A DNA stretch of 64,000 nucleotides from Halioglobus sp. (GCA_028825045.1 JAPKAY010000011.1:17161-81160); one strand, 5' to 3'; positions 23,381 to 27,072 are shown, numbered from the stretch's first letter. The notes: generated by a model not told the origin, from the sequence alone. Translations and numbers: made by a program.

Positions 23381-24778
23381 CTAAAATACCCGGTAGCGCT
23401 TCTGCACATGTTGTTGCCGAATACGAATCTGCTCCCGCCTTTGTTCTGCAGTAACAACGCCAGTGCTCTCAGGCAGGTTTTCTCCAATCTCACTAAACTG
23501 GACTTTTTTTGCGACTATGGTGGGCCAGTCTTCTACCTCGGGCGTGTCACTGTAGGTCCATCTGGGGCTCATGAAACCCTCCCGGTGTCCTGATGTGTCA
23601 ACCCAGTTGGGAACACCCGGATCATGATGAGCCAGCACAATACGCACTACGCCATCGTCATCAGCCGTCATCTGGTGCCCATTGAGACTGCCGATCTGGT
23701 TGGCATACTCGATGGACTCCCCCCACAAGTTACCCACCTGAAAGCCCATATACTGCGGCCGAAGACGAACATAGTTTTCAATAATGAGCGCTTCATCCGG
23801 TTCGAGTTCAAACACACCGCCAGCATAGAGGTTTGTGCTTTGGCCCCCACCGGTTGCACCCGAAGCCGCGTTCACATTGTTAAACCTGTTCCTGGGAAAC
23901 GCAACGCCGGGAATGCTGCCCTCTCGTTCACCATAGGTTCCCATCAGGATAGTCCAAAAGGCATTCCAGAAATGTATTTGGTTGCGCACAATGTCACCAA
24001 AGAGACGAAGTTCGGCGGCAGCTATGTCAGAAGTGTATGGAGGTGCGTGAGTACCTTCGGCGCCTAGTTGAGTGAATTCAAAATGAATCGCCTCCTCGTA
24101 CTCCCAGTCGTTAAACAACTGCCTCCCACTGATGTAATTTGCGTAACGCTTGGTCTCTTTTGCCGAGCCGTCTGGGGTTGGTTTCGGCGATTCGCGAAGT
24201 GTCGCGATAAAATTGCCTGTATAGCCCGAAGGGCATTGGGGAGCTAGCAATATCTCGAAGCTGCCATCATCATTCACGGTGATGGCGGAGGAATCCAACC
24301 GACCGGTTTGCGTTTTGTTTCCAGGCCTCAGCTCCATCAGTGAACCTGTATCGCCCGGCAACTCTCCACTGGTCGCTTCAAAAATAACGTAGTGCGGTGC
24401 TTTGCGGTCATCAGTAATGGGCTCACCGCCCTGCCAATGACGCGCATCTGCCGCCTGCCCACGAAGTCGGTAGCTTTTGCTACCATCGATTGGCGCAGAA
24501 AAATAGATTGCGTCGGGGTTATCGATTGTACTTCGCGTGATCACAGACAGAGCGTTGCGAAATTTTGGACGCACAGGGTCGGAATGAAACGCTCGCTCCA
24601 CCGCGCTGTGCACATAACCCATGAGATAACGGTAGCCCTCTGCCAAATTGCGGTCAGTCGGGGGCGCGGGCATTAGCTCGGGCTGATCGATGGCATCCCG
24701 GGCGTCCTGTAATGCCTTTATCATTTCGTCCCAGGCGGCACGCAGTTGGTTTTTTGCGTCGGGTGATTCCTTAGACAT
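23381..24778 (-). CDS. Rv3531c-like / DUF1214-related hypothetical protein
   Basis: DNPDAIYF, DDGSFEI, FELEPDEALII, SLNG.Q...D.DG.VRIV.AH.DPGVPNW.DT.GH.EG and a C-terminal RREQI..RQ. Confidence 0.7.
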   Translation of the reverse strand: MSKESPDAKNQLRAAWDEMIKALQDARDAIDQPELMPAPPTDRNLAEGYRYLMGYVHSAVERAFHSDPVRPKFRNALSVITRSTIDNPDAIYFSAPIDGSKSYRLRGQAADARHWQGGEPITDDRKAPHYVIFEATSGELPGDTGSLMELRPGNKTQTGRLDSSAITVNDDGSFEILLAPQCPSGYTGNFIATLRESPKPTPDGSAKETKRYANYISGRQLFNDWEYEEAIHFEFTQLGAEGTHAPPYTSDIAAAELRLFGDIVRNQIHFWNAFWTILMGTYGEREGSIPGVAFPRNRFNNVNAASGATGGGQSTNLYAGGVFELEPDEALIIENYVRLRPQYMGFQVGNLWGESIEYANQIGSLNGHQMTADDDGVVRIVLAHHDPGVPNWVDTSGHREGFMSPRWTYSDTPEVEDWPTIVAKKVQFSEIGENLPESTGVVTAEQRREQIRIRQQHVQKRYRVF

Positions 24779-25038
24779 AACTTCTCCTACTGACTTTCTA
24801 CAATTTCACACCTGACTGATCATTGCTTTTGATCGCGCGGGGCTAATGCTATGAGACGCTGGGAGCCGCACCTCCAGTTAAAGAACAGGCAGGCGCGGCG
24901 ATCGAGCTCGACGGTCTCCGAAGTGGTCTGCGGTGAATGCTTTCTCTCCTTGAATAAGCAGGCTACTTTCGGGATCGTCGACCGGCGACACAATCGAACC
25001 ACATTGGACCAACGAAACTTACTGACCAAATACCTTAC

Positions 25039-25896
25039 TCAAACAGTGCTATCAAGGTCCGCAGGTAAAAACGCGTCCCCTAGTAGCGCTGTACCGTCGA
25101 GGCTCATTACCTGCAATCCTAACGAATGCAAAAGCCTTCGGCTATACGCAACACGGCCCACATGCTTACCAGAGCAAAGCTCCAATGCAGCTTCAGCCAT
25201 TATCTCTACCGGCTCCGCCATATCCGGACTGCGTCTGGCGATATCGCGTACGTAATCCGCGCCTGAAGTGAGCACGATATTTTCCGGTGCCAACGTATTA
25301 ACACAAATTCCATCGGCGGCAACCTCGTGAGCCAGTCCCTGCGTGTATCGGTCGAGTGCCGCCTTGGTTGAGCCGTAGGCGCATATAACGTGTGCGGCAA
25401 CTTGAGAATCGCGATAGGGCACCACTGGCTGCAACGCAGTGCTACTGCTGATATTGAGTATCCAACCACGGCCACGCTCGCGCATACCCACTAGCGCCTG
25501 TTGTGCCAAATCGATAGGGGCATTGACGTTCACATCGAACATCCAGCTGCGCTCCTGTGTCGACACCTCACTGGGCAGGCGCATCTTTGATGCTGCGGCG
25601 TTATTAACGACAATATCGATTGCACCGAAGTGTTCCCCGGCCTGACGCACGAGGGCCGCTCTGGCAGTCTCATCGCTGAGGTCACATGCAATACCCGCCA
25701 CGCTACCAGGGCTCTCTTTGTCAATGAGCGCAACAGCTTCTTCAAGATTTCCCTTAAGCTTTCCGTGAGCGCCCCATCGGGACGCACATAACACCACCGC
25801 CGCACCTTCCGCTGCAAACCGGCGGGCGATGGCTAATCCAATTCCTCTACTGGCACCGGTAATCAACGCGGTTTTTCCGGCAAGTATTTCCATCAC
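25039..25896 (-). CDS. Classical SDR oxidoreductase
   Basis: TGASRGIG, VNNAA, NISS and YGSTK. Abuts the sulfotransferase stop. Confidence 0.88.
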   Translation of the reverse strand: MMEILAGKTALITGASRGIGLAIARRFAAEGAAVVLCASRWGAHGKLKGNLEEAVALIDKESPGSVAGIACDLSDETARAALVRQAGEHFGAIDIVVNNAAASKMRLPSEVSTQERSWMFDVNVNAPIDLAQQALVGMRERGRGWILNISSSTALQPVVPYRDSQVAAHVICAYGSTKAALDRYTQGLAHEVAADGICVNTLAPENIVLTSGADYVRDIARRSPDMAEPVEIMAEAALELCSGKHVGRVAYSRRLLHSLGLQVMSLDGTALLGDAFLPADLDSTV

Positions 25897-27072
25897 CTAG
25901 CTCCCACCCAGCTCATTGGACTGCTTCGCAGCTTCCACCCCAGGCCAACCGTAGTCGGTATAAAAATTACTCAATTTCGATTCAATGGTTTTCCTGGACA
26001 ACCCATAGTCATCCAGACTGTAACGGAAATCAGTCTTGTGAGTTTTCTCCCGGTCTTCCTGCAATTGCAGGAACTGATCATAACTTTCAGACAGCGGCAT
26101 ACCGAGTGTGCGATAAATCTTGTGAACAGTTGCACACGGCTGTGTGGTCAGCTCTCGATAGTCAACCACCACTTGAGGCGTCGACGGCTGTTGCGATAGC
26201 ACCTCTCGCGGATGATGATAACTTTCAAAGGATATATCCGTTAACATTTCCAGCGAACGGCCGTAATCGGCACGCGTCCAGCCTTTCCCCTTCCAGGTCA
26301 GTTCTACAAGCTTTAACACGCTGGGTATGCACTGGGCGGGATCGCGCATCATAACTACGATCCTGGCATCGGGAAAAGTCTCGATGAGTGCCTCTACCCA
26401 TCCGCACATTACCGGGTTCTTGCTCAGATGAGTCTTATTCCCACCATTGCGCAATAACTGCCGTTTGATGCACTCACGATAGTGATGCATCCATCGCCGG
26501 CGTTTTTTTGCGGGCATTTGATCGATATGGAAGATATCGATAACATCCATCATAGGAATATCAAGGGACCACTGCTGCGTGACAAACGCCGCTCTCATGA
26601 CAAACTGATCTTCTTCGGAATTCCACAGGCTCATATCATGCATGTGCCGGTACGGGCCAAACGTTTTATCGTCCCACGCGACTAGACGCCGGTGAATCGC
26701 TTGTCCGAACCACTTCTTATCTACATAGCCAATTACACGAATAACTTTTTTCTGTAACAGCGAGGGAAAAAACATTTCCCAGTAGAGAAAGTAACTGAAG
26801 GTCTCACCATCTGCAGCCAACAATCGGTGCACCAGCGTTGTACCGCTGCGCGCGTGACCCACGATAAATACAGGTTGCTCTACTTTTTGACGCCAAAGTG
26901 CGGGAAAAATCAGATAATCCAGCATAAAGCAGATAGCGTGGAACAAAGTTTCCAATGGCACCAGTAGTAAAAGGCGCAGCAGTGTGCGGGAGCGTCCCGA
27001 CCACTGCCGTAATGACCAGACATGACGCAGAACTCGCCAGTAGTATTGGCCGTCAAAATACACGGGCAGCAA
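25897..27072 (-). CDS. PAPS-dependent sulfotransferase (Stf3-like architecture)
   Basis: 5'-PSB loop PVFIVGHARSGTT, LSKNP, and 3'-PB RDP...IPS. Hydrophobic N-terminal extension. Start TTG 27072 or GTG 27063. Confidence 0.88.
   Translation of the reverse strand: MLPVYFDGQYYWRVLRHVWSLRQWSGRSRTLLRLLLLVPLETLFHAICFMLDYLIFPALWRQKVEQPVFIVGHARSGTTLVHRLLAADGETFSYFLYWEMFFPSLLQKKVIRVIGYVDKKWFGQAIHRRLVAWDDKTFGPYRHMHDMSLWNSEEDQFVMRAAFVTQQWSLDIPMMDVIDIFHIDQMPAKKRRRWMHHYRECIKRQLLRNGGNKTHLSKNPVMCGWVEALIETFPDARIVVMMRDPAQCIPSVLKLVELTWKGKGWTRADYGRSLEMLTDISFESYHHPREVLSQQPSTPQVVVDYRELTTQPCATVHKIYRTLGMPLSESYDQFLQLQEDREKTHKTDFRYSLDDYGLSRKTIESKLSNFYTDYGWPGVEAAKQSNELGGS

What the first reader, a model, noticed from the sequence alone, without database searches (positions are those of the whole stretch)
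23381..27072. Sulfotransferase-SDR-Rv3531c-like triad conserved with sterol genes across phyla
Seen: sulfotransferase, SDR and a 465-aa protein carrying DNPD.IYF, FEL.P.EAL and DPGVPNW.DT.GH motifs form a same-strand run. Established (recalled): Rv3529c (sulfotransferase fold), Rv3530c (SDR) and Rv3531c (hypothetical with these motifs) lie in the KstR-regulated cholesterol cluster of M. tuberculosis and have no assigned pathway. Inference: finding the same three families beside sterol genes in a Gram-negative bacterium, in reversed order, points to a conserved and still unknown step of steroid metabolism.
Basis: partly seen in the sequence, partly recalled or inferred. Interest (0 to 1): 0.72.

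Follow-up and report, generated by a model that had tools for sequence, protein, structure and literature searches.

The report
Sulfotransferase, SDR and DUF1214-like gene module
A marine gammaproteobacterium carries, inside its sterol-degradation island, a true relative of the unexplained Rv3529c-Rv3531c operon of mycobacteria; the sulfotransferase and the unknown protein turn out to be an almost obligatory, sometimes fused, pair found in many bacteria, usually away from steroid genes.

Summary
Three same-strand genes encode a PAPS-type sulfotransferase (25897-27072), a classical SDR (25039-25896) and a 465-aa DUF1214-like protein (23381-24778) with the stated motifs.

The homology also holds.
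- The 465-aa protein aligns end to end (E 3e-42) with the 375-aa mycobacterial protein that heads a KstR-boxed DUF-SDR-Stf operon.
- The sulfotransferase of that operon is about 85% identical to PDB 2ZQ5, M. tuberculosis STF1 (Rv3529c).
- The H37Rv locus itself could not be fetched, so identity with Rv3531c rests on this orthologue.

New here: Stf and DUF form a tight pair.
- They are same-strand neighbours in 29 of 37 metagenome loci with enough flank.
- In 201 Halieaceae genomes both occur in 78, one alone in 7, neither in 116.
- Natural fusions exist.
- The SDR is a frequent third partner, in every gene order.

The link to steroids is only partial. The module lies in sterol islands in Mycobacteriales and in this genus, and it is enriched in FadA5-positive genomes. 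Close homologues elsewhere are free-standing operons.

The function is unknown. My best guess is hydroxyl setting, then sulfation, then processing of the sulfate ester by the DUF protein.

The parts
23381..24778 (-). 465-aa soluble DUF1214-like protein of the Rv3531c/6ANS branch (P0001)
   Evidence: The motifs are present. BLASTP E 3e-42 over the full length against the mycobacterial 375-aa orthologue. AF2 model pLDDT 86, same fold as PDB 6ANS with TM 0.87-0.89. No hydrophobic segment.
25039..25896 (-). classical SDR (P0003), third partner of the module in the P0001 clade
   Evidence: adh_short 137 bits. TGASRGIG and YGSTK motifs. 72% identical to the SDR of the second triad. Forms one well-supported SDR clade across different gene orders.
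25897..27072 (-). PAPS-type sulfotransferase with a hydrophobic N-terminal anchor (P0002), Stf1/Rv3529c family
   Evidence: PF13469 102 bits. Best PDB sequence and fold match is 2ZQ5, M. tuberculosis STF1. Invariant R75/G77, K218, R243 and S251 of the PAPS-binding motifs. Residues 31-52 have mean hydropathy 1.87.
27097..28329 (-). CYP125-family P450 (sterol C26-monooxygenase family), 24 nt upstream of Stf
   Evidence: PDB 8VXI CYP125MRCA E 7e-120, then CYP124, CYP125 and CYP142.
28295..28747 (-). ChrR-like cupin_7 protein, overlapping the P450 start
   Evidence: PF12973 50.6 bits. Conserved with the P450 and LLM genes in L052.
28900..29925 (-). LLM-class oxidoreductase (TIGR03617), first gene of the same-strand run
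   Evidence: 346.6 bits against a cut-off of 278. Syntenic with the triad in genus g16 (L142, 76% identical). Relatives lie near the pair in L072, L077 and L078.
22435..23214 (-). second SDR downstream of DUF
   Evidence: adh_short_C2 215 bits. A 72% identical copy lies directly upstream of Stf in L142.
29993..30445 (+). divergent MarR-type regulator
   Evidence: Weak HpaR-family match. A 58% identical copy keeps the same place next to LLM in L142.
30564..31334 (+). enoyl-CoA hydratase (PRK06190; EchA19-like)
   Evidence: 323 bits against a cut-off of 253. A 72% identical copy lies next to the triad in L142.
19041..22381 (+). FadA5-type steroid thiolase, Hsd4A-like SDR and Hsd4B-like double hot-dog hydratase
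   Evidence: NF005889 616 bits against a cut-off of 515, and PRK07792 325 bits. FAS1_DH_region plus MaoC.
46562..49308 (+). KstD-like flavoprotein and KshA-like Rieske oxygenase
   Evidence: NF009478 566 bits, below its cut-off of 789. KshA_C 196 bits at G000:C114:65803-66456.

Best explanation
Shown: the three genes are one conserved module.
- The sulfotransferase is membrane-anchored, of the PAPS type, in the Stf1 (Rv3529c) family.
- The 465-aa protein is soluble, built of two beta-sandwiches plus helices, and belongs to the Rv3531c/6ANS branch of the DUF1214 superfamily.
- These two form a near-obligatory pair: adjacent, co-inherited and sometimes fused into one polypeptide.
- A classical SDR is a frequent third partner.

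Inferred: the three act in sequence on one hydrophobic alcohol.
1. The SDR (and here the adjacent CYP125-type P450) makes or sets the hydroxyl group.
2. The sulfotransferase esterifies it with sulfate from PAPS.
3. The DUF protein binds the sulfate ester and processes it. Most likely it uses sulfate as a leaving group, by elimination or displacement.

In this genome and in Mycobacteriales the module was recruited into a sterol-catabolic island. The substrate here is therefore probably a sterol or a sterol-derived intermediate. Elsewhere the same module is a free-standing operon, so its chemistry is not confined to canonical steroid degradation.
For: Homology:
- P0001 against the mycobacterial 375-aa protein gives E 3e-42 over the full length.
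- That protein heads a DUF, SDR (260 aa), Stf operon. Its Stf fragment matches PDB 2ZQ5 at E 2e-111.
- 2ZQ5 is titled STF1 of M. tuberculosis H37Rv, and STF1 is Rv3529c.
- In a FastTree phylogeny the Rv3531c clade is sister to the P0001 clade, support 97.

Pairing:
- 29 of 37 loci with enough flank have a same-strand Stf within 1.4 kb, and all gene orders occur.
- Stf is adjacent in 84 of 94 decidable rows of the DUF tree.
- The phyletic profile in Halieaceae is 78 both, 6 DUF only, 1 Stf only, 116 neither.
- Fusions of 834-867 aa exist.

Activity:
- The PAPS-binding residues are invariant.
- The genome has an APS kinase.
- Stf has an N-terminal hydrophobic anchor.

Sterol context:
- A CYP125-family P450 lies 24 nt upstream, and FadA5, Hsd4A and Hsd4B are beside it.
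- In mycobacteria a KstR box lies 72 nt upstream of the DUF gene and kshA is about 3 kb away.
- In the transposon screen Rv3531c has a cholesterol/glycerol ratio of 0.279, p 1e-4, while Rv3529c and Rv3530c are not listed.
- A defect in the DUF gene but not in the Stf gene fits a protein acting after Stf on an intermediate that should not accumulate.

Precedent for sulfate as a leaving group: among the fold neighbours of the Stf model are the CurM and olefin-synthase ST domains and retinol dehydratase.
Against: - No catalytic function is known for any DUF1214, DUF1254 or 6ANS-type protein. All structural neighbours are structural-genomics entries without function, and the literature search found nothing.
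- The motif histidine (H398) is not conserved in the family.
- The SDR partners of the P0001 clade and the Rv3531c clade fall in separate SDR clades that are not shown to be sisters.
- Most loci carry no steroid marker within 8 kb.
- Homologues about 68% identical sit among unrelated genes.
- 36 of 84 DUF-positive Halieaceae genomes lack a FadA5 orthologue.
- The transposon evidence is one screen, read from a list of significant genes only.
- No KstR-type operator is enriched in the window.
Confidence: 0.45

Rival explanations
1. Biosynthetic tailoring rather than catabolism. P450 and SDR prepare a hydroxyl on a membrane lipid (sterol, terpenoid or quinone-like). Stf makes a stable sulfolipid end product, as cyp128-stf3 does for sulfomenaquinone. 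The DUF protein is a non-catalytic lipid-binding or substrate-presenting subunit of the sulfotransferase.
For: - P450 directly upstream of Stf.
- Hydrophobic anchor on Stf.
- A fusion of Stf and DUF is compatible with a binding domain joined to a catalytic domain.
- Free-standing three-gene operons among unrelated genes.
- The cyp128-stf3 precedent is recalled from the literature and was not tested here.
Against: - No exporter (MmpL, ABC or RND) recurs next to the pair. Beyond Stf and SDR no neighbour family occurs in more than 5-6 of 80 loci.
- In mycobacteria the operon is under the catabolic repressor KstR.
- Loss of the DUF gene costs fitness on cholesterol.
- The DUF family has many invariant polar residues (N87, D89, Y92, R219, N297, Y343, N366, Q369, N391, R406). 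That is more than a plain lipid pocket would need.
Confidence: 0.27
2. The module has nothing to do with steroids. It acts on some other alcohol, such as a xenobiotic, an alkanol, or a hydroxy fatty acyl or quinone compound. Its position in the sterol islands of Mycobacteriales and of this Halieaceae genus comes from insertion into large, plastic catabolic islands.
For: - Steroid markers are absent within 8 kb in all metagenome loci but one.
- The second triad of this same genome sits beside SnoaL, nitroreductase, an OYE/FadH-like gene, a sulfatase and a GH2 gene.
- Genus g4 has 66-70% identical orthologues without FadA5, and G079 also lacks KshA_C.
- Other genera of the family carry the module far from FadA5.
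Against: - There are two independent embeddings in sterol islands, in two phyla.
- KstR box and cholesterol phenotype in mycobacteria.
- Enrichment in FadA5-positive genomes: odds ratio 9 in Halieaceae, and 9 of 9 against 34 of 292 in Actinomycetota. Neither figure is corrected for phylogeny.
- 82 of 84 DUF-positive Halieaceae genomes have KshA_C genes.
- Recurrent partners (SnoaL, OYE plus Pyr_redox_2, SDR, Hsd4-like genes) have the domain composition of steroid-nucleus enzymes. That resemblance to Bai-type enzymes is recalled, not tested.
Confidence: 0.22
3. The adjacency is incidental and one or more of the three genes is a decaying remnant with no joint function.
For: Only the weak Pfam score of the DUF protein and the uncertain TTG start of Stf.
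Against: - Intact frames that are highly conserved, with 2265 relatives found.
- Confident models, pLDDT 86 and 93.
- Near-perfect co-occurrence and fusions.
- The N-terminus of Stf is conserved from residue 7.
Confidence: 0.02

Closest known systems
Rv3531c-Rv3530c-Rv3529c (stf1) operon of the KstR regulon, M. tuberculosis and other Mycobacteriales
   Same: The same three protein families on one strand. The DUF proteins are homologous over their full length and belong to sister clades. The nearest solved relative of the sulfotransferase is STF1. Both modules lie in a sterol-catabolic island.
   Different: The gene order is reversed. DUF identity is only 28%, and the window's protein has about 90 extra residues (two insertions and an N-terminal helix). 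Stf identity is about 21%. The SDRs are not shown to be orthologous. The window has no KstR box; a MarR-type regulator is adjacent instead. The window couples the module to a CYP125-type P450, a cupin and an LLM oxidoreductase. The mycobacterial operon itself has no assigned function.
cyp128-stf3 sulfomenaquinone system of M. tuberculosis (recalled from the literature)
   Same: A P450 next to a PF13469-type lipid sulfotransferase, giving hydroxylate-then-sulfate logic.
   Different: That system has no DUF1214-like partner and no SDR. Its product is a stable envelope sulfolipid. The setting here is catabolic.
Sulfate-as-leaving-group enzymes: CurM and olefin-synthase ST-TE domains, and retinol dehydratase
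   Same: A PAPS-dependent sulfotransferase fold (fold neighbours) followed by loss of sulfate to form an alkene. The activating and eliminating functions are physically coupled, as in the Stf-DUF fusions.
   Different: In those systems the eliminating partner is a thioesterase domain or the sulfotransferase itself. No DUF1214-type protein is involved. Elimination by the DUF protein is an inference only.
DUF1254/DUF1214 proteins (VPA0735, VPA0106) and PDB 6ANS from Burkholderia cenocepacia
   Same: The same fold: 6ANS at TM 0.87-0.89, and the Vibrio proteins at Foldseek E about 1e-8.
   Different: All are structural-genomics entries without a function. The canonical DUF1254-DUF1214 protein of this window (34657-36165) shares only a 25-residue motif with P0001.

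Membership tests
Rv3531c-type protein family (DUF1214 superfamily, 6ANS branch) | Full-length sequence homology to the mycobacterial 375-aa protein | tested here: met
   BLASTP E 3e-42, 28% identity, residues 24-461 against 4-372. The H37Rv sequence itself could not be fetched. The orthologue was identified through its neighbour's 85% identity to PDB 2ZQ5, M. tuberculosis STF1.
Rv3531c-type protein family (DUF1214 superfamily, 6ANS branch) | Shared motifs DNPD..Y, FEL...[DE].AL and PG[VI].NW..T.G | tested here: met
   Alignment A1 has invariant N87, D89, Y92, P387, G388, N391, W392, T395 and G397. The mycobacterial forms read DNPDTMYF, FELTKDQAL and NPGVTNWVETLGH.
Rv3531c-type protein family (DUF1214 superfamily, 6ANS branch) | Same-strand neighbour of a PF13469 sulfotransferase | tested here: met
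   Window. 29 of 37 metagenome loci. 84 of 94 tree rows.
Rv3531c-type protein family (DUF1214 superfamily, 6ANS branch) | KstR operator upstream | tested here: not met
   TnnAACnnGTTnnA occurs twice in the window against 0.6 expected, and neither site is upstream of the operon. The operator is present 72 nt upstream of the gene in Mycobacterium sp. L136.
Pfam DUF1214 (PF06742) | Score over the gathering threshold | tested here: inconclusive
   The whole-protein score is 29.9 against 25, but no single stretch passes. The genome-wide scan with the family model did not pick the gene up. Fold similarity to VPA0735 and VPA0106 is only TM about 0.4.
PAPS-dependent sulfotransferase, Stf1 (Rv3529c) / STF9 family (PF13469) | 5'-PSB loop (RSGTT) and 3'-PB motif (RDP...S) | tested here: met
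   HARSGTT and MRDPAQCIPS are in the sequence. R75, G77, K218, R243 and S251 are invariant in 32 sequences.
PAPS-dependent sulfotransferase, Stf1 (Rv3529c) / STF9 family (PF13469) | Closest solved relatives are mycobacterial STF1 and STF9 | tested here: met
   phmmer against 2ZQ5 E 2e-14 and 2Z6V E 6.5e-6. Foldseek ranks 1 and 2, TM 0.68-0.73.
PAPS-dependent sulfotransferase, Stf1 (Rv3529c) / STF9 family (PF13469) | Sulfate transfer to a defined acceptor | not testable with these tools
   This needs an enzyme assay. PAPS supply is plausible, since an APS kinase lies at G000:C78:15918-16373.
Classical SDR | TGxxxGxG cofactor motif and YxxxK catalytic motif | tested here: met
   TGASRGIG and YGSTK. 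adh_short 137 bits.
Rv3530c orthologue (SDR of the mycobacterial operon) | Groups with Rv3530c-type SDRs to the exclusion of other SDRs | tested here: not met
   27% identity. P0003-type and Rv3530c-type SDRs form separate clades within an unresolved set that also holds unrelated SDRs.
Aerobic sterol catabolic island | Side-chain and ring markers in the neighbourhood | tested here: met
   FadA5 over its cut-off, Hsd4A/B-like genes, Ltp, ChsH/Ltp2-like genes, ACAD pairs, CYP125, and a KshA_C gene. KstD-like scores are below the NCBIfam cut-offs.
Hydroxylate-then-sulfate lipid tailoring (cyp128-stf3 type) | P450 adjacent to the lipid sulfotransferase | tested here: met
   24-nt gap on the same strand. 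This is not general for the module: P450s lie near only a few other loci.
Hydroxylate-then-sulfate lipid tailoring (cyp128-stf3 type) | A stable sulfated lipid as the end product | not testable with these tools
   This needs 35S labelling or LC-MS.
Sulfate-activation and elimination systems (CurM ST-TE, retinol dehydratase) | A partner or domain that removes the sulfate to give an alkene | not testable with these tools
   There is only indirect support: fusions, the DUF-only cholesterol phenotype, and the fold neighbours of Stf.

The most novel reading that the evidence does not exclude
The DUF1214-like partner is a new class of sulfate-ester lyase or transferase. Together with its dedicated sulfotransferase it performs an 'activate with PAPS, then expel sulfate' dehydration or dehydroxylation of an unactivated steroid or terpenoid alcohol. 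This would be an accessory route of bacterial sterol catabolism. It would explain why Rv3531c mutants, but not stf1 mutants, lose fitness on cholesterol.
Probability: 0.2. Interest if true: 0.85.

Novelty: new variant of a known kind. Interest (0 to 1): 0.62.

Why it matters
Rv3529c-Rv3531c is one of the last unassigned blocks of the mycobacterial cholesterol regulon, and Rv3531c shows a fitness defect on cholesterol. This work adds three things.

- Its sulfotransferase and DUF protein form a near-obligatory, sometimes fused pair across Proteobacteria and Actinomycetota.
- A harmless marine gammaproteobacterium carries two copies, one wired to a CYP125-type P450.
- The pair therefore defines a large uncharacterised sulfotransferase-partner system (1386 clusters at 50% identity with E below 1e-10).

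Together these give a clear experimental handle: co-express the pair and look for a sulfate ester and its fate. It also corrects the idea that the module is specific to steroids.

Tried and rejected
1. Direct retrieval of the H37Rv locus. I scanned genome contigs for the published KstR operator 20-mer. It returned 17 Actinomycetota loci but not M. tuberculosis. Orthology was instead established through a Mycobacterium sp. operon and PDB 2ZQ5.
2. KshA_C as a steroid marker inside Halieaceae. It is too widespread to discriminate well (154 of 201 genomes, 2-12 copies each), so I switched to FadA5 over its curated cut-off.
3. A class-level sample of 401 Gammaproteobacteria genomes. Only the window's own genome has the P0001 clade, so no co-occurrence test was possible at that level.
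4. Structure-based function. Both fold searches gave only uncharacterised relatives for the DUF protein.
5. Literature. Nothing functional on DUF1214, nor on sulfotransferases in steroid clusters.
6. A KstR-type operator in the window. Not enriched.
7. Promoter, terminator and inverted-repeat scans of the intergenic gaps. Uninformative.
9. Relation of P0001 to the canonical DUF1254-DUF1214 protein at 34657-36165. They share only a short motif.
10. Unbiased clustering of neighbouring genes. No further family recurs widely beyond Stf and SDR. The gene calling used there was crude and produced some antisense artefacts.
11. Mirror-tree correlation of DUF and Stf distances. It is high (r 0.77, Mantel 0 of 2000), but it is confounded by species phylogeny and I give it little weight.

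
Full report
**What is in the window.** On the minus strand there is a run of seven genes.
- An LLM-class oxidoreductase at 28900-29925 (TIGR03617, 347 bits against a cut-off of 278).
- A ChrR-type cupin at 28295-28747.
- A P450 at 27097-28329.
- A PF13469 sulfotransferase at 25897-27072 (P0002).
- A classical SDR at 25039-25896 (P0003).
- After a 260-nt gap, a 465-aa protein at 23381-24778 (P0001).
- A second SDR at 22435-23214.

Its Pfam match to DUF1214 is marginal: 29.9 bits with no single stretch passing. 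The P450 belongs to the CYP125/124/142 sterol C26-monooxygenase group; its best PDB match is the ancestral CYP125 8VXI at E 7e-120.

The surroundings are a sterol side-chain island.
- A FadA5-type thiolase over its curated cut-off, with Hsd4A- and Hsd4B-like genes.
- Ltp, split ACAD pairs, and ChsH/Ltp2-like genes.
- An EchA19-like hydratase.
- A KstD-like and KshA_C pair at 46.5-49.3 kb.

The closest named homologues point to Halioglobus, family Halieaceae.

**Is it homologous to Rv3529c-Rv3531c?** The H37Rv genome could not be reached. A scan of genome contigs for the KstR operator 20-mer, published for the Rv3531c/Rv3532 intergenic region, returned 17 Actinomycetota loci but not M. tuberculosis. 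All 15 of those genomes that were searched encode P0001 homologues.

In a Mycobacterium sp. MAG (loci L025 and L136) the best hit is a 375-aa protein. It is followed on the same strand by a 260-aa SDR and then a sulfotransferase.
- The sulfotransferase fragment matches PDB 2ZQ5 at E 2e-111, about 85% identity.
- The fold search names 2ZQ5 as STF1 of M. tuberculosis H37Rv.
- A paper equates Stf1 with Rv3529c.
- A perfect KstR box lies 72 nt upstream of the 375-aa gene, and kshA is about 3 kb away with its own box.
- The 375-aa protein is 85-91% conserved, at exactly that length, across Mycolicibacterium and Mycobacterium.

This is therefore the orthologue of the Rv3531c-Rv3530c-Rv3529c operon.

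P0001 aligns with the 375-aa protein from end to end (E 3e-42, 28% identity). The extra length of P0001 comes from two insertions and an N-terminal helix. The best solved relatives of P0002, by sequence and by fold, are STF1 and M. avium STF9. P0003 is only 27% identical to the Rv3530c-type SDR. In an SDR tree the two types form separate clades that are not shown to be sisters. In a FastTree phylogeny of 107 DUF proteins, the Rv3531c clade is sister to the P0001 clade with support 97.

So the homology claim holds for two of the three genes. The 'reversed order' statement is correct.

**The conserved unit is the Stf-DUF pair.** Several independent lines agree.
- The family is large: 2523 clusters at 50% identity with E up to 1e-3, and 1386 up to 1e-10.
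- Among 80 metagenome loci spanning 27-78% identity, 37 have at least 1.3 kb on both sides. Of these, 29 carry a same-strand sulfotransferase within 1.4 kb, and 16 of those also carry an SDR.
- Six gene orders were seen: Stf-DUF, DUF-Stf, Stf-SDR-DUF, SDR-Stf-DUF, Stf-DUF-SDR, DUF-SDR-Stf and DUF-Stf-SDR.
- Over all loci examined, 84 of 94 decidable DUF genes have an adjacent Stf.
- Natural Stf-DUF fusions exist: an 834-aa protein seen on several contigs, and frames of 851-867 aa in one Halieaceae genus.
- In 201 Halieaceae genomes the pair is present together in 78. DUF alone occurs in 6, mostly fragmented assemblies with the gene at a contig edge. Stf alone occurs in 1, and neither in 116.
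- The window's own genome has a second complete triad on another contig, with Stf 67%, SDR 72% and DUF 62% identical.
- Within the P0001 clade the SDR partner forms a single clade whatever its position in the operon.
- Unbiased clustering of neighbours found no other widely recurrent family. An LLM oxidoreductase, SnoaL-like proteins, OYE plus Pyr_redox_2 flavoproteins and TonB receptors recur in subsets.

**Link to steroids: real but not general.**

For the link:
- In Mycobacterium, Mycolicibacterium and Williamsia the triad lies next to kshA, inside the cholesterol cluster.
- In a sample of 301 Actinomycetota genomes the Rv3531c clade occurs in 9 genomes. All 9 have FadA5 over its cut-off, against 34 of the other 292 (p 1e-8). 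The DUF gene usually lies 15-21 kb from fadA5.
- In Halieaceae, DUF-positive genomes are enriched for FadA5 (48 of 84 against 15 of 117; odds ratio 9). Nearly all of them have KshA_C genes (82 of 84 against 72 of 117).
- In the window's own genus the module sits 5-10 kb from FadA5 in most genomes.
- The supplement of Griffin et al. 2011 lists Rv3531c with a cholesterol/glycerol insertion ratio of 0.279 (p 1e-4). That is similar to fadD19 and cyp125. Rv3529c and Rv3530c are not on the list (classification also).

Against the link:
- These statistics are not corrected for phylogeny.
- 36 DUF-positive Halieaceae genomes lack a FadA5 orthologue, including a genus whose orthologues are 66-70% identical.
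- In other genera the module is far from FadA5.
- Only the closest metagenome relative (L052) has FadA5, Hsd4 or CYP125 within 8 kb.
- In MAGs labelled Deltaproteobacteria, homologues about 68% identical form free-standing SDR-Stf-DUF operons among unrelated genes.
- The second triad of this same genome lies beside SnoaL, nitroreductase, an OYE/FadH-like gene, a sulfatase and a GH2 gene.
- A sample of 401 Gammaproteobacteria genomes outside the family has no member of the P0001 clade.

The module is thus a portable cassette. It has been built into sterol islands at least twice.

**What the proteins look like.**
- The Stf model is confident (pLDDT 93). The PAPS-binding residues are invariant (R75/G77 of the RSGTT loop, K218, R243 and S251 of RDP...S), as is E154; H145 is nearly invariant.
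- Residues 31-52 of Stf form a hydrophobic segment with mean hydropathy 1.87, conserved in the family. This suggests membrane association and a lipid substrate.
- The genome has an APS kinase.
- The DUF model (pLDDT 86, pTM 0.84) consists of two beta-sandwiches with long helices and has no hydrophobic segment.
- The DUF model matches PDB 6ANS, an uncharacterised Burkholderia cenocepacia protein, at TM 0.87-0.89. It matches the Vibrio DUF1254/DUF1214 proteins more distantly. None of these has a known function.
- Many polar residues are invariant in the DUF family (N87, D89, Y92, R219, N297, Y343, N366, Q369, N391, R406). The motif histidine is not.

**Mechanism (inferred).** The pair most likely performs two consecutive steps on one hydrophobic alcohol: Stf sulfates it, and DUF handles the ester.

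I favour processing of the ester, with sulfate as a leaving group, over a purely structural role. The reasons are these.
- The settings are catabolic: the KstR regulon, and here a CYP125, an EchA19-like hydratase and an LLM oxidoreductase.
- PAPS is costly for a catabolic step unless it makes difficult chemistry possible.
- The two proteins are fused in nature.
- Only the DUF gene is flagged on cholesterol in the transposon screen. That pattern is expected when a downstream enzyme removes an intermediate that should not accumulate.
- Precedents exist. The CurM and olefin-synthase ST domains and retinol dehydratase are among the fold neighbours of Stf.

The SDR, and in this window the P450, would make or set the hydroxyl group. 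All of this is inference.

**Literature and earlier notes.**
- The searchable literature holds nothing functional on DUF1214, and nothing on sulfotransferases in bacterial steroid clusters.
- A machine-learning preprint predicts a sterol-like substrate for Rv3530c.
- Earlier notes of this scan had spotted sulfotransferase-DUF1214 pairs in other genomes, and the P450-Stf junction in this window. I used them as leads only, and the pairing was tested independently here.

**Verdict.** The homology to the orphan mycobacterial operon is real, and the module is conserved across phyla. Its core is a sulfotransferase plus DUF1214-like pair of unknown chemistry, and it is not restricted to steroid pathways.

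Noticed in passing
G000 contig C28:28058-31509 (locus L045 10055-13503, minus strand): A second complete Stf-SDR-DUF triad in the same genome, 62-72% identical to the window's. It is flanked by SnoaL-like, nitroreductase and OYE plus Pyr_redox_2 (FadH/BaiH-type architecture) genes, not by classic sterol genes.
   Followed up: partly
L024 10001-12505; L144 9355-11856: Natural fusions of sulfotransferase (N-terminal) and DUF1214-like protein (C-terminal), 834-867 aa. In L024 the fusion is next to an extended SDR or epimerase, SnoaL_4, a TonB receptor and an SdsA-type alkylsulfatase.
   Followed up: partly
window 34657-36165 (-): A canonical DUF1254 plus DUF1214 protein (502 aa) lies 10 kb from P0001 in the same island. 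It shares only a 25-residue DUF1214 motif with P0001.
   Followed up: partly
window 28900-29925 (-) and 37240-38406 (-): Two LLM oxidoreductases score over the cut-offs of subfamilies named F420-dependent (TIGR03617, TIGR03857), in a gammaproteobacterium. The first travels with the triad in another genus (L142), and relatives lie near the pair in L072, L077 and L078.
   Followed up: partly
window 39326-41050 (-): A DASS-family sodium-coupled anion symporter (the family includes sulfate and dicarboxylate carriers) lies 12 kb from the sulfotransferase. No link has been shown.
   Followed up: no
window 42578-44509 (-); L148 1930-3924: A DUF3604 protein lies near the triad both in the window (18 kb away) and in a MAG labelled Deltaproteobacteria (6 kb away). 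This may be coincidence.
   Followed up: no
window 30522-30535: A KstR-like palindrome, TTCAACCTGTTAAA, lies 29 nt upstream of the EchA19-like gene. Window-wide the pattern is not enriched (2 found against 0.6 expected).
   Followed up: partly
L040-L044 and L031 (Mycolicibacterium and Mycobacterium genomes): Mycobacteria carry further paralogous DUF-Stf pairs without an SDR and away from kshA. Individual genomes hold 2-10 matches to the family.
   Followed up: partly
L134 about 11738 (G013:C1:673237-673256): The exact operator 20-mer published for Rv3531c/Rv3532 occurs in an uncultured actinomycete. It lies directly upstream of a 298-aa ORF that precedes the DUF gene, which suggests an extra first gene in that operon.
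   Followed up: no
G125:C20:24913-26043; G173:C5:9203-10360; G175:C4:26319-27326: In three Halieaceae genomes the Stf orthologue has one in-frame stop (TAG or TGA). In G173 the open frame is 856 aa. These may be sequencing errors, decay, or fusion or read-through variants.
   Followed up: no
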